From assembly GCA_965552055.1 (NCBI GenBank), contig CBEVQO010000002.1:103229-167228 (forward strand): DNA of 64,000 nucleotides, in the 5' to 3' direction. The notes below the pieces were generated by a model, which was not told the origin of the DNA, did no database searches, and was given only the letters and a program-made list of their open reading frames with translations. Numbering within the stretch: position 1 is the first letter of the stretch; every line of letters begins with the position of its first letter. Below, piece by piece: positions 3,572 through 31,108 of the stretch. The position numbers and the translations under genes were made by a program. The DNA is from an uncultured bacterium (lineage in GTDB: Bacteria; Hydrothermota; UBA3073; NMUJ01; CBEVQO01).

Positions 3572-5548
3572 TTATAAAATTTTTAGGATATTTTTCACTT
3601 TTGTAAGTCCTTCTTTTGCTTTATCGTAATGTGGGTCAATTTCAAGTGCTTTCTCAAACGCCATCTTCGCCTCTTCATACCTGCCCATCCCAAATAATGC
3701 TTCGCCCTTCCATCTCCATGCGATTTCGGCATCCTTCTCGGGATTTAATTTAATAAATTTCTCTGCTGTTTGAAGAGCTTCTTCATATTCTCCCAGCAAA
3801 CAGCATGCTTCTGCAAGACCAAGCCAGCCATCGGGCAACATGGGATTCAATTCAACAACCCTGCAAAATGCCTCTTTCATCTCTTTGTATTTCTCCATAT
3901 ATCTATAAGTCCAGCCAAGTTCTGCATAAATCTCCCATTTATCACCTTCATATTTTAATGCTTCTTTAAAAGATTTCTCTGATTCTTCGTAGTTTCTTAA
4001 TTCAAAGAAAACTCTTCCTTTGTAAAACCATGCTGTTGAGTGCTCTGGCTTCATTTCGGTTACTTTATCGAGTATTTCAAGTGCTTTTTCAAATTCGCCA
4101 ATTTCAAATAATGCCCTTCCTTTTATAAAAAGTGCCCTTACATCTTTTTCATCATTTTTTAATATTTCGTCCGCTATTTCAATTGCGCTCCAGTATTTTT
4201 TAAGTCCGATAAACGCACTTGCTTTGAGATGAAGTGCTTCCATATTTTTCTCTTTTTCAAGAACCGCATTACATAATTTTATCACTGATTGGTAATCTTT
4301 TGTCTCTTTCAACATAAGTTCTGCTTCTCTGATTATTGCATCTTTGCATGCTGGGTCAATCTTCCTTGCTTTCCTAAAAGCATTTATTGCCTTTTTATTT
4401 TCACCCATCTCTTCCAGCACTTTTCCAAGATAATACCAGTAAACGGGATTTTTCTCATCGTCTTCTATAGCTTTTTCTATACAATATTTTGCTTCCTTAT
4501 AATTTCCTTCTTCCATGTATTCGATTGCATCCGAGAAAATCGTTGAAGCCGAATATTCTTCTTCTGGCAATTCTATTTTCTCCTTTATTATTTTATCTGA
4601 TGGATTGCCGAAATGAGCATATCCGCACCATACTATTGACCTCTTTCTATAAAATTCATTGCGAAGTTCCAGAAGTATATGTCCTATTGTTTCGCCTTCC
4701 AGCATCTTTCTGTAAAATTTTACAGCAAAATTTGCACTATCATGTGAGGGAATTTTAAAAAATGAACCTATATAATGTCTCACACCTGCTTCAACAAATC
4801 CTTTCGCAATATCAAAAGAAGTTTCACATGCATTTGCAAATATGAGGAAAACTTTTTCTAAAGGTAAATCTTTAACATCTTCCGCTTTTAACTTCTCTCC
4901 TTTGTAAAGTTTCCAGCCATCTTTTTCCGCATGCCCTATGTAATGAATTATGTTATATTTAAATAGATTCGCTTTGATTTCCTGTTTTGATGCCGTAAAT
5001 CCGCCTCGCAAATCAAGTGATTTAATTCTTTTCTTTTTCTTCAATCTGCTTAATCTGTTGATGATTTCAATTGTTTCCAATTTTGCATCTTTTTCTATAT
5101 CTCTATCTTCTGTTGGATTTTTTATTATAAGCATTTTTAAGGGTGGGTAAATTTTTTCGAATTTTCTTTCTCTTTTTATTCTTATAATGCGTGCAATTTG
5201 GAATTTAAGTCCCCAGAATTCATCATCATATATGATTTCATAAGGAATTTGTAAAAGCCCCTCTTCAACTTCAAAAAGCAATTTGCTTCCTTCTCTCAAT
5301 CTTTTAAAAGCGGGTTCAAATTCTTTAAACATAACTTTAAATAAAGTTTTGCCAATAGATTTTATTTCCTCTGTAAACTCATCAAAATCTTTGCCCGGTA
5401 TTACAATATTACATTTTTCATAAAATTTTTCGCAAATTTCCTTTATATTTTCTATTTTTATTTTTTTCTCGGTAATTCCTGCGTATCGGTGGATTTTAGG
5501 TCGCACAAGTATATAATCGTCGATTTTAAAAAGATGAATTTCTTTCAC
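3572..5548 (-). CDS. CHAT (caspase-like) protease with C-terminal TPR array
   Basis: LLQIPYE, IIHYIGHA (catalytic His), IFANACET (catalytic Cys), WCGYAHFGNP; C-terminal half is TPR repeats. Confidence 0.9.
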   Translation of the reverse strand: MKEIHLFKIDDYILVRPKIHRYAGITEKKIKIENIKEICEKFYEKCNIVIPGKDFDEFTEEIKSIGKTLFKVMFKEFEPAFKRLREGSKLLFEVEEGLLQIPYEIIYDDEFWGLKFQIARIIRIKRERKFEKIYPPLKMLIIKNPTEDRDIEKDAKLETIEIINRLSRLKKKKRIKSLDLRGGFTASKQEIKANLFKYNIIHYIGHAEKDGWKLYKGEKLKAEDVKDLPLEKVFLIFANACETSFDIAKGFVEAGVRHYIGSFFKIPSHDSANFAVKFYRKMLEGETIGHILLELRNEFYRKRSIVWCGYAHFGNPSDKIIKEKIELPEEEYSASTIFSDAIEYMEEGNYKEAKYCIEKAIEDDEKNPVYWYYLGKVLEEMGENKKAINAFRKARKIDPACKDAIIREAELMLKETKDYQSVIKLCNAVLEKEKNMEALHLKASAFIGLKKYWSAIEIADEILKNDEKDVRALFIKGRALFEIGEFEKALEILDKVTEMKPEHSTAWFYKGRVFFELRNYEESEKSFKEALKYEGDKWEIYAELGWTYRYMEKYKEMKEAFCRVVELNPMLPDGWLGLAEACCLLGEYEEALQTAEKFIKLNPEKDAEIAWRWKGEALFGMGRYEEAKMAFEKALEIDPHYDKAKEGLTKVKNILKIL

Positions 5549-5554
5549 AAATTT

Positions 5555-5581
5555 ATTATAATTTGCATTTTATATTGTCAA
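5555..5581 (-). promoter_or_regulatory. sigma70-type promoter TTGACA-N15-TATAAT, GTG start 6 nt downstream
   Basis: Both consensus hexamers read directly. Confidence 0.7.
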
Positions 5582-5880
5582 GAATTCTTCCAGTGAGGAT
5601 GTGAGAGTCCCATTGTGAAAAATGTTTCAACGATATTTGCGATAAAATGCGAAAATTTGTGGGGAAATTTTAATTTGCCTTCCAGTAAGAATTCAACAGT
5701 TTCGTGAATCAATATCCCTAACTTCTCAAACACCGAGCATTTTTGAAAAATGTAAATCTTATCATAAATCCATGCACCCGTTTCCTTTTTCAATTTTATA
5801 ACCTCTCCCTTTTCATCATGCAAAATAAGATTCACATCAGTAAGAACAATTTTTAAAGGAAAGTTTATTTTCTTTTTCAT
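5578..5880 (-). CDS. Hypothetical protein with HExxE and HxxA motifs (possible minimal zincin-like)
   Basis: LIHETVEF...SHFIA; ATGA overlap with upstream gene. Confidence 0.55.
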   Translation of the reverse strand: MKKKINFPLKIVLTDVNLILHDEKGEVIKLKKETGAWIYDKIYIFQKCSVFEKLGILIHETVEFLLEGKLKFPHKFSHFIANIVETFFTMGLSHPHWKNS

Positions 5881-6257
5881 TCTCGTTGAAATTTGCCATT
5901 TTTATTTATTTCTATAAGAATTTTTTCAATTAGTTTATCAACTTCTTTAAGGCGAGACTCCTTTATTTCGAGATCATAAGGAAATCCTTCAATCCATTCT
6001 TTTAATTCATAAAGAACATCTAAAATTTGCCCATCCGCTTTTTCTTCACAATAACCAAAGATAACTTCTTTTGCTTTTTCCCACCCGTTAATAAGTACTT
6101 TCCTAAACACTCTAAGCAGGAAATCTTTTTGTTCGTCTATACTTAATGTTATATTACCTTTCTTTATATCCTCAAATATTTTGCGTAGCTTTTCACAAAA
6201 TTCAGATTCATCGCGAATGCGAAAAATCTCTTTGCAAATTTCCTTCCACTCTCTCAT
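5877..6257 (-). CDS. Hypothetical helical protein
   Basis: ORF; AAGGAGG RBS before ATG 6257. Confidence 0.6.
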   Translation of the reverse strand: MREWKEICKEIFRIRDESEFCEKLRKIFEDIKKGNITLSIDEQKDFLLRVFRKVLINGWEKAKEVIFGYCEEKADGQILDVLYELKEWIEGFPYDLEIKESRLKEVDKLIEKILIEINKNGKFQRE

Positions 6258-6297
6258 AGCTCCCTCCTTTTTCATAACATTATTACATCTCATTACT

Positions 6298-8397
6298 TCA
6301 CATTTTATTTTTAAGAATATTTAACCTTTGGTAGAATTTTCGATTATCTTTTAAATCGTCATAAGTTGAAATAATCAACACTTTCCTTTCAAGGCGGGTA
6401 CTTTCATCTATTTCTGAAAGTTTCCTTATCACAAAACCTGCTTTTTTATATTTTTCTTCTTTCTCTTTCTGATGCCTTAAATATTTCTCATCTTCCATTC
6501 CATAGTGCTCCCATAGTATTTCTTTATCTTTGGATATTAATTTAAAATCGGGACATACTCCAATGTCGAGATACGCGGATAAAGGTTCATATTGATATTC
6601 TATCTCTGCTTTGCGCAAGAGATTAGCAATTAAGCATTCCTGCCAACTTCTTACTTTTTCTCCATTCAAAGTAATAATTCTCAAATTTTCGGGTAGCAAT
6701 CTCACATCTATAGGATTATCAAACAAATATGTTTTTCTTTTTAATAGCTCGGAAGCACTTACATTGAGTAAATTTGCAATGTGGTCTTCTACTATTATAT
6801 AAAGCCGCCTCTGAGCACGAGTTACAGCGGTATACATCATCTCTCTCGATTTAAAATGCTTTAAACCTTTGGGAATAACCAATAACACATTTTCAAATTC
6901 ACTTCCCTGACTCTTATGTATAGTTATGGCGTAAGCATAATCTAAATTTTCTCCTAACTGATTTAAATAAGCAAATTTCTTTGGAGGAAAGAAAAATTTA
7001 ACTTTTCCATTTCTTAACACATATCCCATCATTCCGTTAAATACTTCTATTTTATAATCATTTTTAGTTTGAATCACTTTGTCTCCCATATAAAACTGTT
7101 TTTGTAACACAATATCTGCTTTCTTTGCAAATCTGGATTCTTGGCGTAAAAAGAGACTTAAATTATAGGAGCCATTTTCACCTTTAATTCTAGTTGGGGT
7201 TAGAATCTGTAATTTATCCTCATATACTAAAAATTTATAAAAACCCTTTGCATCTACAGAAAAATCGTTTTCCCTGAGTAATTCCTCAATTGCTTTTTCC
7301 ACCTCCTTTCGTATATTATTTTTAACAACTTTTACAGTTATGACTTCTTTCTCATCGGTTCTTATTGAAAACTTATCCGCGTTATCTTCTGAAATTTTAT
7401 TACTGAATAATTCATTTAATATTTGTTCTTTTATTGCATAAGGTGTATCTGTGAGAAATATTTTAGAGAACTCAACTATCTTTTTACATTCAGTACGAAG
7501 AATTTTTTCTAATTTTACAATACAATCCTTGTGGTTTTTCTGGAGATATTGATAAAGGTCATAGAAAGGCTTGCCAGCATCTACAGGCGGAAGTTGATTC
7601 ACATCCCCTATCATTATAAAATACTGTAAATTGTTTTTATTGATAAGGGTAAGTAGCATCCCTAAAGTTTGAGTATCTACCATAGATGCTTCGTCTATAA
7701 TTATGGCATCAAGCTTCTTTTTGCGTGATTCTTCTGGAACTTCTTTCAAAATAAAATATTCAAAGTCATAAAAATTGCGTAACTCAGTTGATATAAATCT
7801 GTGTATGGTTTTGACTTCAAGGATTCCTTTCAACTTTTCCATCGTTCTCATGGCTGCTTTTCCAGTAGGAGTTAATACTTTTATTTCTTTTAATCCATTT
7901 TTTAACATTGCTTTTACAAGTGCTTTTATTACATGTGTTTTTCCACTTCCAGCAGGGCCTGTTAAAATACCCACTCTCTTTCTAAGAAGAGATTTAACCG
8001 CATTTATTTGCTCTTTTAATATTTCCTCGTATTCTTCTTGGATTAAATTTACGAATGCGTTTTCTTTCAAATCTTCTTTGATTTCGTCCTCTGTTACATC
8101 AGCTTCAGGTTGTGGCAAGCTATTCAAATATTCGATTATTTCCCCTATTCTTTTTTCAAATCTTTTTACCTCTTTTAAAGTATAAACCCAAATTTCATCT
8201 CCATTTACTTTTACTTTATCTATTTCTACTTTTTCCTGAATGAAATTTTCGTATTCCTTTATTTTGTTTATAAACTCCTTCTGATTTATATCATAAATAT
8301 CTTCTCTGTTTCTTCTTTTGAAATACTCCATAATTTCTAAATCTGTTAAAGATGTATGCCCTTCTTTTAAAGCTTGCTTTAATAAAGTAATCAACAA
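6298..8397 (-). CDS. RecD2-like SF1B helicase with C-terminal PD-(D/E)xK-like nuclease domain (3' part of a split gene)
   Basis: GPAGSGKT, IIDEASM, GDVNQLPPV, YAITIHKSQGSEF, YTAVTRA; C-terminal GEKVRSxxE-IAN...YEP...PDF...WEHYG. Confidence 0.85.
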   Translation of the reverse strand: MLITLLKQALKEGHTSLTDLEIMEYFKRRNREDIYDINQKEFINKIKEYENFIQEKVEIDKVKVNGDEIWVYTLKEVKRFEKRIGEIIEYLNSLPQPEADVTEDEIKEDLKENAFVNLIQEEYEEILKEQINAVKSLLRKRVGILTGPAGSGKTHVIKALVKAMLKNGLKEIKVLTPTGKAAMRTMEKLKGILEVKTIHRFISTELRNFYDFEYFILKEVPEESRKKKLDAIIIDEASMVDTQTLGMLLTLINKNNLQYFIMIGDVNQLPPVDAGKPFYDLYQYLQKNHKDCIVKLEKILRTECKKIVEFSKIFLTDTPYAIKEQILNELFSNKISEDNADKFSIRTDEKEVITVKVVKNNIRKEVEKAIEELLRENDFSVDAKGFYKFLVYEDKLQILTPTRIKGENGSYNLSLFLRQESRFAKKADIVLQKQFYMGDKVIQTKNDYKIEVFNGMMGYVLRNGKVKFFFPPKKFAYLNQLGENLDYAYAITIHKSQGSEFENVLLVIPKGLKHFKSREMMYTAVTRAQRRLYIIVEDHIANLLNVSASELLKRKTYLFDNPIDVRLLPENLRIITLNGEKVRSWQECLIANLLRKAEIEYQYEPLSAYLDIGVCPDFKLISKDKEILWEHYGMEDEKYLRHQKEKEEKYKKAGFVIRKLSEIDESTRLERKVLIISTYDDLKDNRKFYQRLNILKNKM

Positions 8398-8495
8398 TGC
8401 TCTTATTCTCTCCTTGTTTACACTATCAAATTTTTTGTTAAGTTCTTCAAAGCGCCTCTTTTCACCAAAATCAATTTCCTCAAAAGTTACAGGTT

Positions 8496-9032
8496 CTAAT
8501 AATCTCTTCCTTTTTCTTTGAAATATAAATATAATTCCTGATAAGGTATTACAAAAATAGGATTTTCAAAATCAACTTTTAAATCAAAAGATACATTAAT
8601 CTTGTTTTTCTTACTGTCACTACTTATATTTGAAATTTCTTTTATTTTTAGACATGCTGCTATTATTTTATCCTCTGCTATTGGATTTTCTCTAATGTGT
8701 ACCAGAGCATATCCCCCTTTCACTAACTCGAGCATTTCCGTTATCTCATCTTCCTTTCCTTTAGTTACTCCATAAAACGCTCCCCAGAGTCTTCCAGTGC
8801 TGAAAAGTTCTTTTTCAATACCACAAGGTGGATTTTGAATTTCTTCTATTTTCTTTCCCGCACAATTCTCGCATTTTTCTGTTCTTTTCTTATTTGCCCA
8901 ATCCCAACCGTATTTTGTTGATTTTACCCAGTTAAAAGATTCGCAATAGACATTTTCCTTGGGATTACGGCATATTCTCCCGTTCCAACCCATATCGTGC
9001 CATGCTACCATTACAGCAAGATGTTTAAACAT
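8496..9032 (-). pseudogene. N-terminal fragment of the RecD2-like helicase (WHDxGWNGRICxNP domain), out of frame with 6298-8397
   Basis: Aligns with the N-terminus of paralog 12519-15365; about 200 codons present in the paralog are absent at ~8495. Confidence 0.8.
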
Positions 9033-9050: not shown

Positions 9051-9713
9051 TTAAAGTTTTTCTAATAAAATATCAAAGCGCGCAATTATACTTTTTTCTT
9101 TTCTAATTTTAATGGTATAAACTTTTTTCTCAAAAAGTAAAGTTACAGGTTCTTTTGTCAATGTAGCGATTAGATTTCCATTTGCAAATAATAATGCTTC
9201 TGCATCTTCTATTGGTTTATTTTCTTCTTTGTCCTTTATTTCAATTAACTTCAGATTTATTTTATCATCTTTTGTCTGTACATCGAGTGTAACTTTTATC
9301 TTTTCTGTTTCGCTCTCAATTTTCCATGCGTTTGGCAGTTTTTTACCGCTCCGGGTAGTGATAAATGCTCTTTCTTCTATATGGGTGCTTCCGTATAACT
9401 GGCGTGTTGCTATCTGAAACAGCTTTATGGATAACAAAAGATGCAGGACAGTTGAACACATTTCTTTTTTCTTCTCTCTTTCCAGATATTTCTTTAAACT
9501 TTTCATTTCCATCACTTTGCGAAAACATGCATCACATTCTGTAAGATGCTTCTCAAACACTTCACGCAACTCATCCGGCAGAGTGCCATCAACATATCCT
9601 GCTATCCAGTGTTCGTCATACTCTTTACAATCGGGTATGGGCTCCGTTTTTCTCATCTCTCTCAATGCCCTTAAGAGCCATTCAATATCATCGTTGTCAA
9701 AATCAGGACACAT
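9051..9713 (-). CDS. zf-HC2 anti-sigma factor, soluble, beta-rich C-terminal domain
   Basis: YVDGTL...FEKHLTECDAC (HxxxCxxC); overlaps the sigma gene; no clear TM segment. Confidence 0.85.
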   Translation of the reverse strand: MCPDFDNDDIEWLLRALREMRKTEPIPDCKEYDEHWIAGYVDGTLPDELREVFEKHLTECDACFRKVMEMKSLKKYLEREKKKEMCSTVLHLLLSIKLFQIATRQLYGSTHIEERAFITTRSGKKLPNAWKIESETEKIKVTLDVQTKDDKINLKLIEIKDKEENKPIEDAEALLFANGNLIATLTKEPVTLLFEKKVYTIKIRKEKSIIARFDILLEKL

Positions 9714-12504: not shown

Positions 12505-12533
12505 TTATTACCTATTTCTCAAGTTTTCTTACA
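12505..12533 (-). promoter_or_regulatory. Candidate ECF promoter TGTAAG-N16-GTAATAA upstream of the ClpX-like gene
   Basis: One of five same-spaced copies in the island. Confidence 0.65.
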
Positions 12534-24514: not shown

Positions 24515-24581
24515 AACCCCCTCCTTCCCCATCGGAGCAGGCAAAATTTACTTTCGATTTTCAAAGAGCTCTCTCAATTAT

Positions 24582-24610
24582 TTATTACTTCTTTCATGTA
24601 TTTTCTTACA
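24582..24610 (-). promoter_or_regulatory. Candidate ECF promoter TGTAAG-N16-GTAATAA
   Basis: Exact motif and spacing. Confidence 0.65.
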
Positions 24611-25250
24611 CAAATTTTTTAATGAGTTCATCTTTGTATGCATCTGTCATTTCTTCTCGCTCTCTTGCTCTCATTTTTTCATTATATTCTTTAACTGCTT
24701 CTTTTATCCTTCTGCGTAAGTTCTCCGGACTCGAAGCATAACCCAGTATTTTATTGAACTGAGAAAGAATATAGCGTAAATGTAAAGGTGTGGGAATTAA
24801 TACACTTAATGGTATTTTTTGCTCCTCACCAAATACATTTTTTGTTCTTTTCCATATTATGAAGTAAAATTCTTTGTAATCTGCAACTACTTCAAAATCT
24901 TCATACCCATAAATGTATTTAAATCTGACTTCTTCGGGCTTCACTTCTACTTTTTCACACTTTATCCATTTAAGACAATCAAGCACTTCTTCGAGTTTTA
25001 AAGGTTTATATTTGCCACCCTGACATATTGCTGTCATAAAGCGCCCCTGATCCGGACGCTGATGTAACCTGCATTCTATCATCGTTTTTACCATTTTTGC
25101 AGATAAATGACTACTACTGCTCTCAACAAATCGATAACCTTTCAGTTCTGCCCATACCGGCATAATAACACGAATATCATAGGGATTGTAAATATACCAA
25201 TCCCAAATACCTTCTAATTCTGCCCACACAGGATTTTTAATTTTTAACAT
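24606..25250 (-). CDS. Hypothetical protein
   Basis: ORF; AAGGAGGTG before ATG 25250. Confidence 0.6.
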   Translation of the reverse strand: MLKIKNPVWAELEGIWDWYIYNPYDIRVIMPVWAELKGYRFVESSSSHLSAKMVKTMIECRLHQRPDQGRFMTAICQGGKYKPLKLEEVLDCLKWIKCEKVEVKPEEVRFKYIYGYEDFEVVADYKEFYFIIWKRTKNVFGEEQKIPLSVLIPTPLHLRYILSQFNKILGYASSPENLRRRIKEAVKEYNEKMRAREREEMTDAYKDELIKKFV

Positions 25251-25278
25251 ATCACCTCCTTTTTGCCATCTCATATTT

Positions 25279-25307
25279 ATATTAAACTAAATTACGATTT
25301 TCTTACA
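25279..25307 (-). promoter_or_regulatory. Candidate ECF promoter TGTAAG-N16-TTAATAT (variant)
   Basis: Same -35 and spacing, degenerate -10. Confidence 0.5.
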
Positions 25308-26562
25308 AATCTATTTTCAGAATTAACCAGTCGTTCCTTTTAAAGGGCTTTTCATCTGTCGTTAATAATATTTTTCTTTTAGCTTTTAAATTAAGATATT
25401 TCTTCCATTCTTCGCCTCTCCATAATCCGTCTGTTAGTATTACAAGCATATCCTGTGCTTTTATCCGCTTACTTACTTCAGCGAGCGCTTCTGTAGGGTC
25501 TGTTCCACCCCTACCTTTTATCTTAAAACTCACTTTATTGGTAAATCTCTTAAAACCATAAAATTTAACATCCCAGCATCCCCAGTAAACTTCTGCTTCT
25601 TTGCTCATGCTTTTAATCTCTCCCATAAATTGTTGGAGTTGTTTTTTGTCTATACTTCCACTCGTATCTAAAAGGACGAAAACCCTGCCCTTTTCGAGAT
25701 ATAATCTCCCTTTCGCATCCGGTACCTTTCTGCTGGGACGCTTCCATGTGGGAATGCAAAAACTCGAAATCCATTCCCTGTAATATGTGCGTAAAAGGCG
25801 TTTCCAGTTTACTTTGCTTTTAAATAGAATATCAACAAGTTCTTCCAAGCCAGCGGGAAGATATCCTGCTGTTTTTGCTAATACCAAAGCACGCCTGAAC
25901 TCATCCCTGATTTTTTCCTTTTCTTCATCTCTGACTCCCGAACCCTCGCTAGGATATTTCTTTTCTTCTCCTCCGGCTCCTGAACCCTCGCTAGGATATT
26001 TCTTTTCTTCTCCTCCGGCTCCTGAACTCTCATCTCCTAAATCCTTGCGAGGATAAAGGTCGCTTCCTTTTATAATATTAAGGATACGGTCTATTCTTAT
26101 TTTTCCCGATTTTACCTTTGATAATAATTCTTTGTAAATTTCTTCGGTACTCATCCTTTTTATTTCATATACGGATTTTCCAATCAATTGAGCGATTGTA
26201 AAAGGAGTTATTTCCCTGTAAGATAGTTTGAAATTAAGTTCATCTAAGTATTGATTGACTTTGCAATCGGCTGCTATATTCCATAGCAGGGCATCTATTT
26301 CATCCAGATTTTTTATCCTTTCGCAGTGTTCAAGCACTATATGAAGCAACTCGTGAAATAATAATTTAACGCCTTCTGCAATTGTGTGAATTTTTGATGT
26401 ATTCAAAAAGATTTCCAATCCATTCGTATAAGCCGGAACTTCAGATTCTTCGTCTATTCTTAGATATTTCTGAACCTTCCACAACACAGGGACAAAAAAG
26501 GGAAATAATACAGAACTAATTTCAATCGCTGCTTCAAATATGCTTTTCAACAGGTTGCTCAT
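25303..26562 (-). CDS. DUF2201-type metallopeptidase plus vWA-like domain protein
   Basis: AYTNG, FHELLHIVLEH (HExxH), WNIAADCKVN, LLDTSGSI (MIDAS), GRGGTD, ILTDG. Confidence 0.88.
   Translation of the reverse strand: MSNLLKSIFEAAIEISSVLFPFFVPVLWKVQKYLRIDEESEVPAYTNGLEIFLNTSKIHTIAEGVKLLFHELLHIVLEHCERIKNLDEIDALLWNIAADCKVNQYLDELNFKLSYREITPFTIAQLIGKSVYEIKRMSTEEIYKELLSKVKSGKIRIDRILNIIKGSDLYPRKDLGDESSGAGGEEKKYPSEGSGAGGEEKKYPSEGSGVRDEEKEKIRDEFRRALVLAKTAGYLPAGLEELVDILFKSKVNWKRLLRTYYREWISSFCIPTWKRPSRKVPDAKGRLYLEKGRVFVLLDTSGSIDKKQLQQFMGEIKSMSKEAEVYWGCWDVKFYGFKRFTNKVSFKIKGRGGTDPTEALAEVSKRIKAQDMLVILTDGLWRGEEWKKYLNLKAKRKILLTTDEKPFKRNDWLILKIDL
25940..26027. repeat. 42-bp in-frame tandem duplication in the inter-domain linker
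   Basis: Encodes SGAGGEEKKYPSEG twice. Confidence 0.9.
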
Positions 26563-26574
26563 AATACCTCCTTT

Positions 26575-27708
26575 TTACCATTCTTTTTTAAACTTTGCAA
26601 CTTTTGTTCCTAAATCTTTAATTAATTCTTTGAGAGATGTATCTATCATTTTGAGCATTTCTTCGTAAATTTCTCTCCTCTTTTTGACTGGCAACATCCT
26701 GAAGAAAAGAGAAAGAGTAAGCATCACCATTTCTCTGTCCTCAGAAAGAGCAGGAATGAAAATCACTTCCTCAATTTTCTTATATTTTTCAGGGAAATTT
26801 TTTAACAAATAGTGAGCAAGATGTGTGAAAAAGAGATATTTTATATCCATCGTTTTCAATTTATCTCCGGGATATTTTTTATTCTTAATACACTCTTCTA
26901 TATCCGGGAAATTCCTTGTTACTTTGATAAACTGATAAAATTTACTTCCAACTTCGCCTCCCAAAAATGCCTGACAATCTTCTTCGTAATACTTTTCATT
27001 TTTGTTTAGAAATTCGCTGAGCATCGTCCAGCTTCTTGGAGTCGGATAAGGTTCTACAGCTGTACCCGAATCAGGTGGTTTGTAAAAATCCTCCGGAAAC
27101 TTCATCAAATATGCTATTACATTGGGGTTAGTTCTCTCTTTTGTTGACTCATAAGAAATCCATTCTTTAACGGTGGCAGGTTCAACTTCATATACTGCTG
27201 CGCGATTCATTATCGGAGTGGCTAATTCTGTTGCTACATCGCTGTATTCCGGGGGATTGCCTGCACCCACCACCATTACATCGGGATGAAGTTTCAACCA
27301 TCCAACTCTTTTATCCAGCAACAATTTGAATAAAATGCTCTGTACATCGGGACGCAATGTGTTAGATATTTCATCCAGAAATAATACACCCGGACACTTA
27401 CTTAATGCATGCAATGGTCTGTTATACTTGAACTGAAGCTTTCCATCATTTTCACGGGGTATAAAGAAATCTTCCTGTGTAACCTCATATAATCTAATAT
27501 CGAGCAAGATAAAGGAATTTTTAATTTCTCCGTCGGACAAACTATCATCCCACTCCAGATATTTCAATCCCATCTCTTTTGCTTTTTGTTCTGCAAATTC
27601 ATGAACCTGCTCAGATTTACCGATACCAGGACCTCCAAATAGTATCACAGTGCGAGGATAATGACGATTGAGTGTCTCCAATACACGATTTATTTTTAAT
27701 TTCTTCAT
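26575..27708 (-). CDS. MoxR-like AAA+ ATPase
   Basis: GGPGIGKS, LFLDEI, GAGNP, PTPRSW; start 27708 after RBS. Confidence 0.88.
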   Translation of the reverse strand: MKKLKINRVLETLNRHYPRTVILFGGPGIGKSEQVHEFAEQKAKEMGLKYLEWDDSLSDGEIKNSFILLDIRLYEVTQEDFFIPRENDGKLQFKYNRPLHALSKCPGVLFLDEISNTLRPDVQSILFKLLLDKRVGWLKLHPDVMVVGAGNPPEYSDVATELATPIMNRAAVYEVEPATVKEWISYESTKERTNPNVIAYLMKFPEDFYKPPDSGTAVEPYPTPRSWTMLSEFLNKNEKYYEEDCQAFLGGEVGSKFYQFIKVTRNFPDIEECIKNKKYPGDKLKTMDIKYLFFTHLAHYLLKNFPEKYKKIEEVIFIPALSEDREMVMLTLSLFFRMLPVKKRREIYEEMLKMIDTSLKELIKDLGTKVAKFKKEW

Positions 27709-27721
27709 AACACCCCCCAGC

Positions 27722-28192
27722 TTATTGAAAGAGGCAAATAAAAGATGCAATTGATGTGAGCCTGTCATTTAAATTGTTAAGAATTGAGGTGACATCTCTT
27801 TTTAATTCTTCTTTACTCTTGATATTCTTCTTCCATATCATAAAATAAGTTGAAATTATTTTGATTGAATAACCTTTCACTCCGAGAGATTTGTATATAT
27901 CTTGCATTATACAACCTCTTATGTCCTTATTTTGAAATGAACCCATGTATTTGCTGAAAAGATAAATCAGTTTTTCGAATTCAATTGTGAGAAATACTTT
28001 GTAGTGCTCTCGCTTCACAATCCACATTATAAGTTGAGTATCGTATCCAAATTGTTTCAGCAGAGTTTGTTTAACTTGAATCTCATATCCATTTTCTCCC
28101 AGTAATTTACCTGTTAAATCGAAAGGAAACTGAACCTTTGATTCCAAATCATGCATAATTTCTCTCATTTCACACTGTAATTGCTTAATCAT
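27722..28192 (-). CDS. Hypothetical protein (paralog of 28217-28714)
   Basis: IVKR...CI..DIY..L..KGY pattern shared with neighbour; GGAGG RBS. Confidence 0.6.
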   Translation of the reverse strand: MIKQLQCEMREIMHDLESKVQFPFDLTGKLLGENGYEIQVKQTLLKQFGYDTQLIMWIVKREHYKVFLTIEFEKLIYLFSKYMGSFQNKDIRGCIMQDIYKSLGVKGYSIKIISTYFMIWKKNIKSKEELKRDVTSILNNLNDRLTSIASFICLFQ

Positions 28193-28216: not shown

Positions 28217-28714
28217 TTAGCCGTAAGCCCGTTGTTGATATAATATCATCATAATATCGTTGAGAACCGAGATGCAAAATTGTTTCACTTTTGTTTCACT
28301 ATATATATCTCTTGCTATACGGAGGAAACCCTTTCCAACATCAACTTTATAACCTCTTAATTTAAGCCGGTTATATATTTCCCCCAAAATGCATCTTTTT
28401 ACATTTTTGATTACTTTCTTTATTTTTTTCTCTTCCTTTTTATCTTTAATTTTTATCACTGCATTTGGACAGCCAACTGCAACCCATATTCTATAAATCT
28501 TGGACCTTTTAACAATGCGAAGCATAATCCGGGCAGTGATGTTGAAATCAGGGAAATTAATCAACACGGTGGATTTACCATCAATCTGAAAATCCGAGCT
28601 GTTATCACCAAGCTGGCATATTGTAAGGCAAGGTGGGTTCTTAACACCCAGATATATCGCACGCATAATCCTTGCCCCGGCTCCAAAGCACAAAAAATCA
28701 TGCATACGAAACAT
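28217..28714 (-). CDS. Hypothetical protein (paralog of 27722-28192)
   Basis: IVKR...CILGEIYNRLKLRGY; RBS before ATG 28714. Confidence 0.6.
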   Translation of the reverse strand: MFRMHDFLCFGAGARIMRAIYLGVKNPPCLTICQLGDNSSDFQIDGKSTVLINFPDFNITARIMLRIVKRSKIYRIWVAVGCPNAVIKIKDKKEEKKIKKVIKNVKRCILGEIYNRLKLRGYKVDVGKGFLRIARDIYSETKVKQFCISVLNDIMMILYQQRAYG

Positions 28715-28738
28715 AACACCCCCCTTGTTTCTCATTAA

Positions 28739-28767
28739 TTATTACTGCTTTTGATTATTTTCTTACA
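28739..28767 (-). promoter_or_regulatory. Candidate ECF promoter TGTAAG-N16-GTAATAA
   Basis: Exact motif and spacing. Confidence 0.65.
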
Positions 28768-29989
28768 AATCTATTTTCAAAATTGTCCAGTCATTTCTCC
28801 TGAAAGGTTTTTTACTCGTAGTCAAAAGCAATTTTCTTTTCGCATTTATATTAAGATATTTTTTCCACTCATTTCCATACCATTCCCCATCCGTAAGAAT
28901 TACAAGCATATCATGTGGTTTTATAACTTTTTTAACTTCCTTTAAAGCTTTTGTAGGGTCTGTTCCACCTCTCCCTCTTATCTTGAATTTTGTTTCACTA
29001 TTTTTTACCTTTTGCAAACCGTAGAAATCAACATCCCAGCATCCCCAGTAAACTTCTGCATCCTTATTCATAGTTTTTATCTCAGCCATAAACTGTTCAA
29101 GTTCAGCATGCCCGATACTACCGCTTGTATCTACGAGTACATAAACTTTACCTTTTCCCAAATATAATTTGCCTTTGACATCGGGAACTTTTCTGCTCGG
29201 ACGCTTCCATGTTGATACACAAAAATGAGATATCCATTCACGGAAATATGTACGCAAAAATCTCTTCCAGTTTATCTTGCTTTTGTCTTTTGCATCCACA
29301 ACCTCTTCCATCTTTGCTGCTACATTGCCAGCACTCTTCAGCGCTTCTGTTATACCCCGCCTAATTTCATCAAGGTCTATATCTTCAAATTGATTTCCCA
29401 CACCTGCTCCCTCTTCACATTCTTCCATATCTTCATCTACTTCAATAACTTCAGGTATGCATCCACTTGATAAACATTCCAGTAAATCCCAATCTACTTC
29501 TTTTAATCTACCTCGACATTTTTTTACAATCTTTATCTCATGAATCTTCACTACTTCGGCGAGTTTTAAATAAATTTGTTCTGTTGTCATTTTCTCTATT
29601 TGCTGTGGAGAAAAGCCAGTTAATCCTTCAATGATTCTCGCTGTTTGCATATCCTTCGTCTTTAAACCGAGTTTTGACATTATTGCATTCACTTTACAAT
29701 CTGCTGCAAGATTCCACAATAATCTATTTCTTTTATCCATAAATTTCAATCTTAAAGGATGTTCAAGAATATAATGGAAGAAAACATGCAAAAAATTTAT
29801 GCATTCTTCTCCTGTGCTTAACCTCTCGGGGTTTACCCTTATTATCCTGCCATCTGTCTTTACAGGTGTGTCCATTTCTCTATCTTCTACAACTGCTTTT
29901 TCAACCCTGTATAATGCTGGCAAAAGAAAATGTGCTTTGGAAACCGTTAATAATTGCCTTACCTTTTTAATTAATGTTGCGGTATCCAT
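28763..29989 (-). CDS. DUF2201-type vWA protein with degenerate peptidase motif
   Basis: KTDG, FLHVFFHYILEH (no catalytic Glu), WNLAADCKVN, VDTSGSI, GRGGTD. Confidence 0.87.
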   Translation of the reverse strand: MDTATLIKKVRQLLTVSKAHFLLPALYRVEKAVVEDREMDTPVKTDGRIIRVNPERLSTGEECINFLHVFFHYILEHPLRLKFMDKRNRLLWNLAADCKVNAIMSKLGLKTKDMQTARIIEGLTGFSPQQIEKMTTEQIYLKLAEVVKIHEIKIVKKCRGRLKEVDWDLLECLSSGCIPEVIEVDEDMEECEEGAGVGNQFEDIDLDEIRRGITEALKSAGNVAAKMEEVVDAKDKSKINWKRFLRTYFREWISHFCVSTWKRPSRKVPDVKGKLYLGKGKVYVLVDTSGSIGHAELEQFMAEIKTMNKDAEVYWGCWDVDFYGLQKVKNSETKFKIRGRGGTDPTKALKEVKKVIKPHDMLVILTDGEWYGNEWKKYLNINAKRKLLLTTSKKPFRRNDWTILKIDL

Positions 29990-30001
29990 TTTTACCTCCC
30001 G

Positions 30002-31108
30002 CTATGTTGCGATTAACTCATCTGCGGATTCAATTCTACTGCTCAATAATTCTCTAAGTTCTACATGCATTATCTGGAGTATCTTCTCTATCTCATCTTT
30101 TTTCCATCCTTTTAAAATTGCGTGCAATGTAACTACAAGAAATTCTTTATTTCTTTTCAGCATGCGTAGCAGGATTTTATTTTCAACTTCTTTATACCTG
30201 TCTGGATGTTTCCTCACCCACATTGCCACATGGAAAGCAAAATTATATAATTTATCTATTGAATTTATCGTATGTAGTTTTAGCGGATTCTTCAAAATAT
30301 CTTCAACCGATGGTATCCTATATCTCGTTGATAAGAAAAAGTTACTCCCCACTTCTCCTCCCAGGAATGCCTGACAATCTGCTTCAGTGAAATCCGGATT
30401 GTTATTCAGGAAGCAGGATAAAAGTGTCCAGCTTCTAGGTGTAGGATAAGGTTCTGATGTTGCTCCTTTTTGCGGTGGCAGATAAAAATGCTCCGGATGT
30501 TTCAATAAATAAGTGGCGACATAGTGATTGAGGCGACCCTTCTCTGTTTCATAAGAAATCCATTCTTTAACACTTACATGCTCCACCTCATATATGGCTG
30601 CACGGTTCATTATCGGAGTGGCTAACTCCGTTGCTACTTCGCTGTATTCGGGTGGATTACCCGCACCTATAACCATCACATCTTTATGAAGCTTTAGCCA
30701 TCCAACTCTTTTATCGAGTAACAATTTAAACAAAATGCTCTGCACATCCGGGCGAACGGTATTTGAGATTTCATCAAGGAAAAGCACACCGGGATGTTGA
30801 CCCAAAGCTCTCAGAGGTCTGTTATATTTGAAAACTATGCCGTCAGAAGTTTCACGGGGAATAAAGAAATCTTCGGGAGTAACTTCATACAATCTCATAT
30901 CCAGAAGTATAAATGCATTCTTTAAATCTCCTTCTGTAAGCCTATCATCCCATTCCACAAAGTTCAGTCCCAATTTCTCTGCTTTCTCCCTGGCAAACTC
31001 CCTAACCTGTTCGGATTTGCCGATGCCAGGTCCACCAAAGAATATCACCGTCCCGGGAAAATGTTTATGCAGGGTTTCTTTTATCTCATTTACCTTGATT
31101 TTAACCAT
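30002..31108 (-). CDS. MoxR-like AAA+ ATPase (paralog of 26575-27708)
   Basis: GGPGIGKS, LFLDEI, GAGNP, PTPRSW. Confidence 0.88.
   Translation of the reverse strand: MVKIKVNEIKETLHKHFPGTVIFFGGPGIGKSEQVREFAREKAEKLGLNFVEWDDRLTEGDLKNAFILLDMRLYEVTPEDFFIPRETSDGIVFKYNRPLRALGQHPGVLFLDEISNTVRPDVQSILFKLLLDKRVGWLKLHKDVMVIGAGNPPEYSEVATELATPIMNRAAIYEVEHVSVKEWISYETEKGRLNHYVATYLLKHPEHFYLPPQKGATSEPYPTPRSWTLLSCFLNNNPDFTEADCQAFLGGEVGSNFFLSTRYRIPSVEDILKNPLKLHTINSIDKLYNFAFHVAMWVRKHPDRYKEVENKILLRMLKRNKEFLVVTLHAILKGWKKDEIEKILQIMHVELRELLSSRIESADELIAT

What the first reader, a model, noticed from the sequence alone, without database searches (positions are those of the whole stretch)
3572..31108. Candidate protease-gated sigma-factor conflict island: CHAT-TPR, two soluble ECF/zf-HC2 pairs, private ClpX-like unfoldase, variable LRR and DNA-processing enzymes
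Seen: about 27.5 kb of co-oriented genes combining an intact CHAT protease, two ECF sigma/anti-sigma pairs with no clear TM segment, a ClpX-like ATPase with IGF loop but no zinc domain, a hypervariable LRR, helicases, nucleases, a glycosylase and MoxR/vWA pairs; no cas genes in the window. Established: in type III CRISPR-associated Csx29/Csx30/CASP-sigma and CalpL/CalpT/CalpS systems a protease cleaves an anti-sigma to control a sigma factor. Inference: this could be a CRISPR-independent equivalent in which TPR or LRR sensing activates CHAT, the anti-sigma is cut and removed by the ClpX-like protein, and the sigma factor induces the island.
Basis: partly seen in the sequence, partly recalled or inferred. 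Interest (0 to 1): 0.85.

Follow-up and report, generated by a model that had tools for sequence, protein, structure and literature searches.

The report
Mosaic defence cluster with sigma switches
This stretch of a bacterial chromosome is a patchwork of separately inherited defence-type genes that includes two unusual soluble sigma/anti-sigma regulator pairs and a caspase-like protease, rather than one proven protease-controlled machine.

Summary
No cas gene was found in the window. "Hypervariable" LRR is not shown. The co-oriented run is about 48 kb, not 27.5 kb.

The island is not one conserved unit.
- ClpX-like orthologues: 0 of 8 contexts hold another island gene.
- MoxR/DUF2201 pairs: 0 of 5.
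- AAA-394 relatives: 0 of 5.
- The RecD-like helicases match PADLOC candidate PDC-S68; one copy is broken.

Two parts of the interpretation survive.
- Sigma A and anti-sigma A are predicted to bind (0.84 against best control 0.40).
- Among 200 other genomes of the phylum, the only similar CHAT domain lies directly beside the closest sigma-like and anti-sigma-like relatives.

Best reading: an accreted defence cluster with two local sigma/anti-sigma switches. A CHAT-gated switch for pair A is possible but unproven, and the ClpX link is not supported. Myxococcus DdvS/DdvA is a published precedent. Call it a new variant of a known kind, of moderate interest.

The parts
30002..31108 (-). MoxR-like AAA+ ATPase, copy 1 (368 aa)
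   Evidence: AAA_5 at 32.4 bits; phrog_1297 at E 6e-50; 59% identical to copy 2
28763..29989 (-). DUF2201 protein, copy 1: metallopeptidase-like N domain plus VWA-like domain (408 aa)
   Evidence: PF13203 at 71.8 bits and PF09967 at 37.4 bits; phrog_1314; MoxR adjacency kept in 5 of 5 foreign loci
28217..28735 (-). 172-aa protein of unknown family
   Evidence: No Pfam or PHROG hit; weak paralogue of 27722-28192
27722..28192 (-). 156-aa protein of unknown family
   Evidence: No Pfam or PHROG hit
26575..27768 (-). MoxR-like AAA+ ATPase, copy 2 (397 aa)
   Evidence: AAA_5 and AAA hits; paralogy
25303..26562 (-). DUF2201 protein, copy 2 (419 aa), with an internal 42-nt tandem repeat at 25915-26040
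   Evidence: PF13203 at 85.6 bits; 50% identical to copy 1; repeat family D14
24606..25274 (-). 222-aa protein of unknown family
   Evidence: No hit
23963..24544 (-). 193-aa protein with a hydrophobic N-terminus
   Evidence: Hydropathy 2.07 at residue 14; no family hit
23690..23914 (-). 74-aa hydrophobic small ORF lying in an apparent gap
23058..23636 (-). 192-aa protein of unknown family
   Evidence: No hit
21852..23036 (-). AAA+ ATPase of 394 aa with an unknown N-terminal half
   Evidence: PF00004 at 34.6 bits; phrog_14322 at E 5e-27; relatives in 4 of 200 other genomes of the phylum
21171..21851 (-). Sigma-like protein B (226 aa)
   Evidence: TIGR02937 at 33.8 bits, below the cut-off; paralogue of sigma A
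20488..21174 (-). Anti-sigma-like protein B (228 aa): Cys/His-x3-Cys-x2-Cys motif, no TM segment
   Evidence: Paralogue of A; motif invariant across 8 sequences; no Pfam hit of its own
17115..20474 (-). Cytoplasmic LRR protein (1119 aa) built from near-identical repeats
   Evidence: LRR_EndoS at 244 bits, LRR_4 and others; repeat families D1-D3
16326..17102 (-). AGOG-type N-glycosylase/DNA lyase (258 aa)
   Evidence: PF09171 at 86.9 bits
16120..16326 (-). 68-aa Cys-rich small ORF
   Evidence: no Pfam hit
15397..16095 (-). PDC-M57B-like protein (232 aa); looks GIY-YIG-like by eye
   Evidence: PDLC04713 at E 1.4e-64; no Pfam or NCBIfam hit
12519..15440 (-). PDC-S68-like RecD-family helicase, intact copy (973 aa) with a Cys-rich N domain
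   Evidence: PDLC05065 at E 1.9e-100; AAA_30, AAA_19 and UvrD_C_2
11358..12488 (-). ClpX paralogue without the zinc-binding domain (376 aa)
   Evidence: NF003745 at 229 bits against cut-off 359; alignment with the genome's own ClpX; orthologues at 50-62% identity in 9 other genomes
10976..11368 (-). 130-aa protein of unknown family
   Evidence: No hit
9703..10605 (-). Sigma-like protein A (300 aa)
   Evidence: TIGR02937 at 42.2 bits against 42.9 and r4_2 at 24.4 against 25.7; Atlas neighbours include sigma-70 clusters at 0.96; predicted to bind anti-sigma A
9051..9713 (-). Anti-sigma-like protein A (220 aa): zinc anti-sigma domain, low-confidence linker, C-terminal beta-sandwich
   Evidence: zf-HC2 at 32.1 bits; Cys29/His56/Cys60/Cys63 invariant; AF2 model; weak Ig-like fold matches
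8496..9032 (-). N-domain fragment of the second PDC-S68-like gene (178 aa)
   Evidence: 37% identical to residues 26-192 of the 973-aa copy; PDLC05066 positions 1-76
6298..8508 (-). Helicase fragment of the second PDC-S68-like gene (699 aa from the TTG at 8397). Homology runs on upstream to 8508 with no start codon.
   Evidence: PDLC05065 at E 3e-105; frame and homology
5877..6293 (-). 138-aa protein of unknown family
   Evidence: No significant hit
5578..5880 (-). 100-aa protein of unknown family
   Evidence: No hit
3572..5548 (-). CHAT-TPR protein (658 aa): CHAT at the N-terminus, TPR at the C-terminus, His/Cys dyad present
   Evidence: only similar CHAT in 200 other genomes of the phylum is in G031
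2478..3566 (-). RmuC-family protein with an N-terminal TM segment.
   Evidence: PF02646 at 51 bits; hydropathy 3.27; 0 of 40 relatives at E<=1e-10

Best explanation
The region is an accreted cluster of defence-type genes on a long co-oriented stretch of chromosome. It is built from modules that are inherited independently of each other.

Modules.
- Two phage-like MoxR/DUF2201 pairs.
- Two copies of a PDC-S68-type RecD-family helicase: one intact, one internally deleted and split.
- A PDC-M57B (GIY-YIG-like) protein, an AGOG glycosylase and an LRR protein.
- A CHAT-TPR protease and an RmuC-like protein.
- A ClpX paralogue without the zinc domain, which is native to the phylum.

Two paralogous regulator pairs sit inside the cluster. 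Each is a very divergent sigma-70-family protein followed by a soluble zinc (Cys/His-x3-Cys-x2-Cys) anti-sigma.

Proposed mechanism. Each anti-sigma holds its sigma through its N-terminal zinc helical domain (modelled). A signal acts on its C-terminal beta-sandwich domain or on the roughly 45-residue low-confidence linker (inferred). The freed sigma then drives the genes downstream of the pair (inferred):
- pair B: LRR, AGOG, GIY-YIG-like protein and the intact helicase;
- pair A: the split helicase, two small proteins, CHAT-TPR and RmuC.

The trigger is unknown. Cleavage by the CHAT-TPR protein is one candidate for pair A. The ClpX paralogue is not a dedicated part.
For: Independent modules.
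- ClpX-like orthologues (50-62% identity) occur in 9 other genomes of 200 searched. 0 of the 8 contexts fetched holds any other island gene, by tblastn at E<=1e-3 or by sigma and anti-sigma profiles. Their neighbours are peroxiredoxin, DUF2130, macro domain, BioY, DnaA and a DAG-kinase-like protein.
- MoxR-like relatives occur in 6 of 200 other genomes. MoxR lies beside DUF2201 in 5 of 5 contexts, with other island genes in 0 of 5.
- AAA-394 relatives occur in 4 of 200 other genomes, with other island genes in 0 of 5 contexts.
- The S68-like helicase occurs in 1 of 200 other genomes.
- PADLOC profiles hit only the helicases (E 1e-100 and 3e-105) and PDC-M57B (E 1e-64), among the 20 proteins scanned.

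Duplication and decay.
- Paralogue identities are sigma 25%, anti-sigma 29%, helicase 43%, MoxR 59% and DUF2201 50%.
- Helicase copy A is split and has lost about 190 residues.

Sigma/anti-sigma.
- Family scores are near their thresholds, and Atlas neighbours include sigma-70 clusters.
- The Cys/His/Cys/Cys motif is invariant.
- Complex score 0.84 against best control 0.40. The mark was reached by 58 of 80 solved complexes and 2 of 110 mismatched pairs; contacts agree in at least 64%; partner pLDDT is at least 70. The interface uses anti-sigma residues 33-91 and two separate sigma regions.
- The AF2 model of anti-sigma A shows helices, a linker of low confidence (residues 75-124) and a beta domain with pLDDT 77-87.
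- There is no integrase near the island, and no close phage relative.
Against: - No promoter, transcript or regulon data exist. The sigma-70 consensus and terminator scans found no more sites than shuffles do (52 against 53.0 +/- 7.3; 7 against 6.6 +/- 2.8). No RNA run was listed.
- Both sigma-like proteins score below the curated cut-offs. The AF2 model of sigma A was unusable (pLDDT 46.6).
- The complex prediction may pass through likeness to solved sigma/anti-sigma complexes, and it used two-row alignments.
- The pairs have almost no full-length relatives: 2 of 40 hits at E<=1e-10 in 1.84 billion representatives, both the window's own or a 93% twin. Conservation therefore cannot confirm function.
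- The G031 synteny argues that at least CHAT and the pair are not independent of each other.
- Neighbourhood tests covered +/-10 kb or less, on often short contigs and within one phylum.
Confidence: 0.5

Rival explanations
1. A minimal protease-gated switch acting in trans. CHAT-TPR, anti-sigma A and sigma A form one module, in effect the DdvA/DdvS arrangement split into separate soluble proteins. TPR-mediated sensing activates CHAT, which cuts the anti-sigma linker and frees the sigma. The rest of the cluster is regulon or unrelated cargo.
For: - Of 200 other genomes of the phylum, only G031 has a CHAT domain like this one (E 7e-20, 33% identity). That gene lies immediately after a sigma-like (306 aa), 187-aa and zf-HC2 (562 aa) operon, which holds the best relatives of sigma B and anti-sigma A.
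- Here CHAT-TPR lies in the same tightly packed run as pair A.
- The dyad is intact.
- Anti-sigma A has a roughly 45-residue linker of low confidence.
- Published precedents: Csx29 cuts Csx30 to free CASP-sigma (PMC10028731, passages); DdvA carries TPR-CHAT (PMC11506125, passages).
Against: - There are only two occurrences (G000 and G031).
- Domain order differs: CHAT-TPR here, TPR-CHAT in G031. The proteins are therefore not simple orthologues.
- Other relatives of the anti-sigma domain sit beside dynamin-like GTPases (L022/L023), beside a TPR protein without CHAT (L026/L027), or are fused to a P-loop NTPase (P0005). A CHAT profile hit 1 of 8 such loci.
- Here 3.5 kb and four ORFs separate the anti-sigma from CHAT.
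- Adjacency could equally mean that the sigma controls CHAT expression.
- No CHAT:anti-sigma co-fold could be run.
Confidence: 0.22
2. One reading: one 27.5-kb CRISPR-independent system. LRR or TPR sensing activates CHAT, the cut anti-sigma is removed by the private ClpX-like unfoldase, and the sigma induces the whole island.
For: - All named parts are present and co-oriented.
- The ClpX-like protein keeps the pore loop and an I-G-F tripeptide.
- ClpXP finishes RseA degradation in E. coli, as noted in PMC10028731 (passage).
Against: - ClpX-like orthologues in 8 of 8 foreign contexts lack every other island gene and lie among housekeeping-type genes.
- MoxR/DUF2201 (0 of 5) and AAA-394 (0 of 5) neighbourhoods show the same.
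- Co-orientation runs on for about 48 kb into unrelated genes.
- One helicase copy is decayed.
Confidence: 0.07
3. A remnant of a phage or other mobile element. MoxR/DUF2201, the AAA+ ATPases, the RecD-like helicases, the GIY-YIG-like protein and the sigma/anti-sigma genes would be early or regulatory phage genes left behind after decay.
For: - PHROG families match MoxR (E 6e-50), DUF2201 (E 8e-42), AAA-394 (E 5e-27) and ClpX-like (E 2e-54).
- MoxR-like genes were found in 608 phage records at under 60% identity.
- The components are distributed sporadically across the phylum.
Against: - No capsid, portal, terminase or integrase family was seen among the window proteins scanned, and the integrase matches lie on contigs C6, C7 and C9 only.
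- No viral contig holds a relative of the anti-sigma domain.
- No flanking direct repeats stood out, and no tRNA gene lies in the window.
- GC content matches the genome.
Confidence: 0.1
4. The sigma-like and anti-sigma-like proteins are not transcription regulators. They would be degenerate or re-purposed helical proteins, for example adaptors for the neighbouring ATPases.
For: - Both sigma-like proteins fall below the curated family cut-offs, and no Sigma70_r2 match lies in the island.
- There is no PDB sequence match for the sigma profile (best E 0.73).
- AF2 could not fold sigma A.
- An unusual N-terminal Cys-x2-Cys-x4-Cys motif is shared by the two.
Against: - The TIGR02937 match spans sigma regions 2 to 4 (model positions 27-164 of 165).
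- Relatives in L020 and L023 score on Sigma70_r2 (22.9 bits) and r4_2 (28.2 bits, above the cut-off).
- Atlas neighbours include sigma-70 clusters.
- The predicted interface has the two-domain pattern of sigma/anti-sigma complexes.
Confidence: 0.1

Closest known systems
DdvS/DdvA of Myxococcus xanthus: an ECF sigma plus an anti-sigma bearing TPR-CHAT, controlling a CBASS/CRISPR defence island (PMC11506125; passages read)
   Same: Both have a zinc anti-sigma domain of the Cys/His/Cys/Cys type paired with a sigma-70-family protein, a CHAT/TPR protease with a His/Cys dyad in the same locus, and defence-type genes around.
   Different: DdvA is a single transmembrane protein with a periplasmic TPR-CHAT, and release is proposed to involve RseP. 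Here the anti-sigmas have no TM segment, CHAT-TPR is a separate cytoplasmic protein with the reverse domain order lying 3.5 kb away, there are two pairs, and no cas or CBASS gene is in the window.
Type III-E craspase: Cas7-11, Csx29 (TPR-CHAT), Csx30, Csx31 and CASP-sigma (PMC10028731; passages read)
   Same: The logic is the same as the one proposed here: a CHAT protease cuts a sigma inhibitor to start a transcriptional response.
   Different: There is no Cas7-11 or other cas gene in the window. The inhibitor here is a zf-HC2 protein. Sigma A gave only a weak, sub-threshold hit to the III-E sigma model NF041236 (E 0.0026, 17.7 bits against cut-off 100). CHAT is N-terminal to TPR.
CalpL/CalpT/CalpS: SAVED-Lon protease, anti-sigma and ECF-like sigma of type III CRISPR (search listing and abstracts only)
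   Same: A protease, an anti-sigma and a sigma form a tripartite signalling system in a defence context.
   Different: No SAVED or Lon family appeared among the window proteins scanned. There is no link to cyclic-oligoadenylate signalling.
ChrR/SigE and RsrA/SigR: soluble zinc anti-sigma factors (from my own knowledge of the families, plus weak tool matches)
   Same: These are soluble anti-sigmas with an N-terminal zinc-binding domain. ChrR also has a C-terminal beta-rich sensor domain. RsrA and RslA were the only PDB sequence matches to the anti-sigma profile (E 0.37 and 0.12). ChrR chains appear at Foldseek ranks 11 and 21 (E 0.03-0.04).
   Different: All these matches are weak. The C-terminal domain here looks like an Ig-type sandwich rather than a cupin, and the genomic setting is defence-type.
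PADLOC candidate systems PDC-S68 and PDC-M57
   Same: Both RecD-like helicases match the PDC-S68 profiles (E 1.9e-100 and 3e-105), and the 232-aa protein matches PDC-M57B (E 1.4e-64).
   Different: One S68 copy is split and internally deleted. No PDC-M57A match appeared among the 20 island proteins scanned. No paper text with either name was found.

Membership tests
Sigma-70 family, ECF-like (group 4) | Sigma region 2 domain | tested here: inconclusive
   No PF04542 match lies in the island at E<=0.01. TIGR02937 covers model positions 27-164 at 42.2 bits (A) and 33.8 bits (B), against a cut-off of 42.9.
Sigma-70 family, ECF-like (group 4) | Sigma region 4 helix-turn-helix | tested here: inconclusive
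   Sigma70_r4_2 scores 24.4 bits against cut-off 25.7 for A. B has no Pfam hit. The relative in L023 passes at 28.2 bits.
Sigma-70 family, ECF-like (group 4) | Binds RNA polymerase core and directs promoter-specific initiation | not testable with these tools
   Needs biochemistry or ChIP/RNA-seq.
Zinc-binding anti-sigma factor (ZAS, zf-HC2) | His-x3-Cys-x2-Cys motif with an upstream Cys or His ligand | tested here: met
   Cys29, His56, Cys60 and Cys63 are invariant in 8 aligned sequences, including both island proteins. zf-HC2 scores 32.1 bits against 22.2 for A. B has no Pfam hit of its own.
Zinc-binding anti-sigma factor (ZAS, zf-HC2) | Binds the cognate sigma encoded next to it | tested here: met
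   This is a prediction only. Score 0.84 against best control 0.40; the mark was reached by 58 of 80 solved complexes and 2 of 110 mismatched pairs; contacts agree in at least 64%; partner pLDDT is at least 70. The pass may reflect likeness to solved complexes.
DdvA-type anti-sigma | One polypeptide holding a zinc anti-sigma domain, a TM helix and a periplasmic TPR-CHAT | tested here: not met
   There is no TM segment (hydropathy 1.45 and 1.37). CHAT-TPR is a separate gene.
Type III-E craspase module | Cas7-11 and a CRISPR array beside TPR-CHAT, Csx30, Csx31 and the sigma | tested here: not met
   No cas family appeared among the 60 window proteins scanned with Pfam, and PADLOC gave no such hit. 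A crude genome-wide repeat scan flagged no CRISPR-like repeat run on contig C2, which holds the window.
CalpL/T/S | SAVED-Lon protease next to the anti-sigma and sigma | tested here: not met
   No SAVED or Lon domain was found in the proteins scanned.
ClpX | AAA+ module with pore loop and ClpB_D2-small domain | tested here: met
   AAA_2 at 68.2 bits and ClpB_D2-small at 48.9 bits. A G-Y-V-G loop is seen in the translation.
ClpX | N-terminal Cys4 zinc-binding domain | tested here: not met
   It is absent here but present in the genome's own ClpX on C6. The NF003745 match starts at model position 55, and the score of 229 lies below the 359 cut-off.
ClpX | IGF loop for docking on ClpP | tested here: inconclusive
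   An I-G-F tripeptide is present and kept as [I/V]GF in the two orthologues aligned. MAFFT, however, placed the housekeeping ClpX's IGF about 14 residues further on.
CHAT (caspase-like) protease | CHAT fold with a catalytic His and Cys | tested here: met
   PF12770 at 60.9 bits. His and Cys columns are conserved in a 4-sequence alignment.
PADLOC PDC-S68 | Single large protein: Cys-rich N domain plus a RecD-like helicase | tested here: met
   The 973-aa copy matches profile positions 172-1083 of 1221 at E 1.9e-100. Copy A is split into 178-aa and 699-aa ORFs.
PADLOC PDC-M57 | Both components, A and B, present | tested here: not met
   Only B matched (E 1.4e-64). No M57A hit appeared among the 20 island proteins scanned.
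MoxR/VWA (DUF2201) two-gene module | MoxR AAA+ gene directly beside a DUF2201 metallopeptidase/VWA gene | tested here: met
   The pair occurs twice here and in 5 of 5 foreign loci.

The most novel reading that the evidence does not exclude
A CRISPR-independent, fully cytoplasmic version of the CHAT/anti-sigma/sigma immune switch. A free-standing CHAT-TPR protease would cut the flexible linker of a soluble zinc anti-sigma to release a highly divergent sigma-70-family protein, and that sigma would turn on adjacent defence genes. The switch has been duplicated, so two sigma/anti-sigma pairs each head their own set of effectors: LRR, glycosylase, GIY-YIG-like protein and helicase for one; helicase, CHAT and RmuC for the other. 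The same anti-sigma domain family is wired elsewhere to dynamin-like GTPases or fused to a STAND-type NTPase. That would make it a general sensor-to-transcription adaptor of conflict systems.
Probability: 0.2. Interest if true: 0.75.

Novelty: new variant of a known kind. Interest (0 to 1): 0.45.

Why it matters
Transcriptional control of defence islands by sigma/anti-sigma pairs is known from only a few cases: DdvS/DdvA, CASP-sigma and CalpS. All of these are tied to CRISPR or to a membrane anti-sigma. If the pairs here are real switches, two things follow. Soluble zinc anti-sigmas with varied sensor domains would also gate CRISPR-independent defence genes. And a family of very divergent sigma-like proteins, missed by curated thresholds, would be part of immune regulation.

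The negative result matters as well. Co-orientation and a suggestive gene list were not enough, because most components travel separately. The zinc-domain-less ClpX is a paralogue conserved in several families of the phylum and has nothing to do with this cluster.

Tried and rejected
- Word-index homologue searches found only a 93% twin for anti-sigma A and only the protein itself for sigma A.
- The exhaustive profile search gave 40 hits at E<=1e-3. Only 2 were full length, both the window's own or its twin; the rest matched mainly the zinc motif.
- The AF2 model of sigma A was unusable (pLDDT 46.6) and was not sent to a fold search.
- Foldseek of the anti-sigma A model gave no match at E<=0.001.
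- The PDB sequence search with the sigma profile gave nothing meaningful.
- Viral-contig scans gave 2 weak partial loci for ClpX-like, none for MoxR and none for the anti-sigma alignment.
- tblastn against phage records gave only distant matches under 60% identity. Against plasmid records, the S68-like helicase had 0 of 690 records covering 80% of it.
- The genome contigs and metagenome-contig scans with alignment A4 returned 2 and 11 loci, many of them short.
- The consensus promoter and terminator scan did not exceed shuffles.
- An apparent 51-nt intergenic repeat (family D8) turned out to be, in two copies, the conserved C-terminal coding end of the DUF2201 paralogues. I dropped it as a promoter candidate.
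- No RNA holder was listed for the stretch. Contigs of four coded DNA runs hold short pieces of it. Uncovered parts and the joints inside the LRR gene cannot be told apart from assembly effects.
- The class of G031 holds only 3 genomes, so the G031 operon could not be followed further.
- The eLife 2020 paper on NTP-dependent conflict systems has 0 occurrences of sigma, anti-sigma, ClpX or RecD (find mode).
- No paper text containing PDC-S68 or PDC-M57 was found.
The only named same-phylum record is titled merely 'MAG: bacterium'.
- CHAT:anti-sigma co-folding was not possible, because the single complex job went to sigma:anti-sigma.

Full report
SETTING

The window is G000:C2:103229-167228 of a 2.23-Mb genome in 15 contigs, 97% complete and 35-36% GC. 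The genome is bacterial: it has a tRNA-Ile/tRNA-Ala pair typical of an rRNA spacer and 46 tRNA genes. Two window proteins carry a type-IX-secretion sorting domain. The reference set holds no relative of the same genus or family; the nearest are 'same order'. The window holds no tRNA gene and no Rfam match.

WHAT IS THERE

Every ORF of 90 aa or more from 286 to 31108 is on the minus strand. The apparent gaps of 230-370 nt contain further small minus-strand ORFs of 58-74 aa. In transcription order:
- MoxR-like AAA+ and DUF2201 (metallopeptidase-like plus VWA-like), followed by 172-aa and 156-aa unknowns.
- A second MoxR/DUF2201 pair.
- Unknowns of 222, 193, 74 and 192 aa.
- A 394-aa AAA+ protein.
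- Sigma-like B and anti-sigma-like B.
- An LRR protein of 1119 aa.
- An AGOG glycosylase, then a 68-aa Cys-rich ORF.
- A PDC-M57B-like protein, which looks GIY-YIG-like by eye.
- A 973-aa RecD-family helicase matching PDC-S68.
- A ClpX paralogue, then a 130-aa unknown.
- Sigma-like A and anti-sigma-like A.
- A 178-aa fragment and a 699-aa helicase, together a second S68-like gene.
- Unknowns of 138 and 100 aa.
- CHAT-TPR.
- Six nucleotides later, an RmuC-family protein.

Internal BLAST shows three duplicated modules:

| Module | Identity between the two copies |
|---|---|
| MoxR | 59% |
| DUF2201 | 50% |
| Helicase | 43% |
| Anti-sigma | 29% |
| Sigma | 25% |

CHECKS OF THE SINGLE CLAIMS

CHAT. 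The CHAT domain has its His and Cys.

Anti-sigmas. Neither has a segment as hydrophobic as a TM helix. Both keep the Cys/His-x3-Cys-x2-Cys ligands.

ClpX paralogue.
- It lacks the Cys4 zinc domain that the genome's own ClpX has. That copy lies on C6 beside ORFs that I read by eye as ClpP-like and trigger-factor-like.
- It keeps the pore loop and an I-G-F tripeptide.
- Whether that tripeptide is the ClpP-docking loop is probable but not settled by the alignment.

Cas genes. No cas gene appeared among the 60 window proteins scanned. Cas1 is on contig C1.

LRR. 'Hypervariable' is unproven. The gene is very repetitive, and contigs from four coded metagenome runs show joints inside it. Repeats produce the same picture through assembly.

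Sigma-like proteins. Both are below the curated cut-offs. The genome's five clear Sigma70_r2 genes all lie elsewhere.

Co-orientation. It is not a property of the proposed island. The minus-strand run continues to about C2:86480, through genes that look unrelated.

Left border. The RmuC-like gene just outside it was found in 0 of 40 relatives.

IS IT ONE SYSTEM?

I used the better-conserved components as anchors.

ClpX-like protein.
- Clear orthologues (50-62% identity) occur in 9 other genomes of 200 searched in the phylum. The remaining matches are ordinary ClpX at 35-42% identity.
- In the 8 contexts fetched (5-20 kb each), no other island protein matched, either by tblastn at E<=1e-3 or by profiles of the sigma-like and anti-sigma-like families.
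- The neighbours are peroxiredoxin, DUF2130, a macro domain, BioY, DnaA and a DAG-kinase-like protein.

MoxR-like relatives.
- They occur in 6 of 200 other genomes.
- DUF2201 lies beside MoxR in 5 of 5 contexts. No other island gene is present (0 of 5).

AAA-394 relatives. They occur in 4 of 200 other genomes, with other island genes in 0 of 5 contexts.

S68-like helicase. It occurs in 1 of 200 other genomes, on a 4-kb contig.

Known systems and mobility.
- PADLOC profiles recognise only the helicases and PDC-M57B among the 20 proteins scanned.
- No integrase lies near the cluster.
- No close phage or plasmid relative turned up.

Decay. The second helicase copy is decayed or split. Homology to residues 384-418 of the intact copy continues upstream of its first possible start codon and abuts the end of the 178-aa ORF in another frame. 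About 190 residues of the middle are missing.

Together these results describe an accreting and decaying cluster of independent modules, not a conserved 27.5-kb machine.

THE SIGMA/ANTI-SIGMA PAIRS

These are the unusual part.

They have almost no full-length relatives: 2 hits at E<=1e-10 in 1.84 billion representatives, both the window's own or a 93% twin.

Evidence that they are a sigma and its anti-sigma:
- TIGR02937 aligns across regions 2 to 4 at 42.2 bits, against a cut-off of 42.9.
- The language-model Atlas places sigma A next to sigma-70 clusters, with a score of 0.96 and 172 shared features. This is a lead only.
- The anti-sigma profile's only PDB sequence matches are RslA and RsrA, both weak.
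- The pair is predicted to bind. Score 0.84 against best control 0.40; the mark was reached by 58 of 80 solved complexes and 2 of 110 mismatched pairs; the runs agree in at least 64% of contacts; partner pLDDT is at least 70. The pass may owe something to solved sigma/anti-sigma complexes, and my alignments had only two rows.
- An AF2 model of anti-sigma A shows an N-terminal helical domain, a segment of low confidence (residues 75-124) and a confident C-terminal beta-sandwich. Fold matches are only weak (Ig-like domains; ChrR at ranks 11 and 21).

The zinc domain is most like a small family found in metagenomes and one same-phylum genome. That family is wired to varied partners:
- In G031 (locus L020) the order is sigma-like (306 aa), a 187-aa protein, a zf-HC2 protein (562 aa) and TPR-CHAT (762 aa).
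- In L023 the order is sigma-like (303 aa), a 201-aa protein and a zf-HC2 protein (423 aa), followed by 297-aa and 137-aa ORFs and then two dynamin-like GTPases (843 and 600 aa) with a 210-aa ORF between them.
- In P0005 the domain is fused to a protein with a P-loop that I read as STAND-like by eye.

THE CHAT LINK

Searching 200 other genomes of the phylum with the island's CHAT domain found one match only, in G031. It is the very TPR-CHAT gene that follows the sigma/anti-sigma operon there. The two other CHAT genes of G000 itself did not reach the threshold.

So the closest relatives of the CHAT, the anti-sigma domain and the sigma-like protein are neighbours in the one other genome that has them. 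That is real but thin support for a functional tie.

Points that weaken it:
- There are only two occurrences.
- Domain order is reversed (CHAT-TPR here, TPR-CHAT there).
- The other relatives of the anti-sigma family lack CHAT (a CHAT profile hit 1 of 8 such loci).
- Adjacency would also fit the sigma simply controlling CHAT expression.

COMPARISON WITH KNOWN SYSTEMS

The nearest published analogue is DdvS/DdvA of Myxococcus. It is an ECF sigma and a transmembrane anti-sigma with a Cys/His/Cys/Cys zinc domain and a periplasmic TPR-CHAT, and it controls a CBASS/CRISPR island. CHAT autoproteolysis is proposed but not shown (PMC11506125, passages).

Type III-E Csx29 cuts Csx30 to release CASP-sigma (PMC10028731, passages). 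CalpL/T/S uses a SAVED-Lon protease (abstracts).

The present locus shares the logic but fails the defining features of each: no TM fusion, no cas genes, no SAVED-Lon. It is therefore at most a new, soluble, trans-acting, CRISPR-independent variant.

VERDICT

- The grand interpretation is not supported. Its ClpX leg in particular is contradicted.
- A smaller core remains plausible and testable: two soluble sigma/anti-sigma switches inside a defence cluster, one possibly gated by CHAT-TPR.
- I put the mosaic-with-local-switches reading at 0.5, the minimal CHAT-gated module at about 0.2, and the full cascade below 0.1.

Noticed in passing
window 8397-8508 and 8496-9032: The second PDC-S68-like helicase is broken. 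Homology to the intact copy continues 37 codons upstream of the first possible start codon, in a different frame from the 178-aa N-domain ORF that ends there. About 190 middle residues are missing. It is either a pseudogene, a split gene or an assembly frameshift.
   Followed up: yes
G000:C2:86480-134336 (window 1-31108 and leftwards): The minus-strand run of genes is about 48 kb long and includes four tandem paralogues of about 125 aa at C2:89129-90619. Co-orientation alone therefore says little about the island.
   Followed up: partly
L045 9336-11649, L046 8338-10651, L050 20-2952: The ClpX paralogue without the zinc domain is conserved in 9 other genomes of 200 searched in the phylum (four families). 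In 3 of 8 contexts a DUF2130 protein lies beside it or one gene away (a BioY gene intervenes in L050). This may be a separate, undescribed ClpX-like pairing.
   Followed up: partly
P0005 (690 aa); L023 3959-13191: The same anti-sigma zinc domain, preceded by a roughly 230-aa N-terminal domain, is fused to a P-loop NTPase in one metagenome protein. In another locus it sits in an operon with two dynamin-like GTPases. This hints at a family of sensor-linked anti-sigma adaptors.
   Followed up: partly
window 25915-26040: A 42-nt tandem repeat (three copies) inside DUF2201 copy 2 encodes a repeated Gly/Glu/Lys-rich 14-residue linker that is absent from copy 1.
   Followed up: no
window 32881-33639: The 252-aa plus-strand ORF next to the cluster is built from 177-nt direct repeats (families D9 and D19). 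Its upstream neighbour (31202-32884) has an N-terminal hydrophobic stretch that looks like a signal peptide, and only a weak CsgG-like hit.
   Followed up: no
window 9703-10605 and 21171-21851: Both sigma-like proteins share an N-terminal Cys-x2-Cys-x4-Cys motif (Cys13, Cys16, Cys21). I do not recall this from ordinary ECF sigmas, and it could bind metal.
   Followed up: no
window 6298-8397, C-terminal roughly 100 residues: The tail of the 699-aa helicase gave a weak PDC-S69 hit (E 7e-4). By eye it resembles a small restriction-endonuclease-like nuclease domain.
   Followed up: no
window 17115-20474: Contigs of coded runs X1 and X4 show skips and one back-joint inside the LRR repeats (for example 17274 to 18307 and 20071 to 20353). 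This is either variation in repeat number within the population or assembly collapse.
   Followed up: partly
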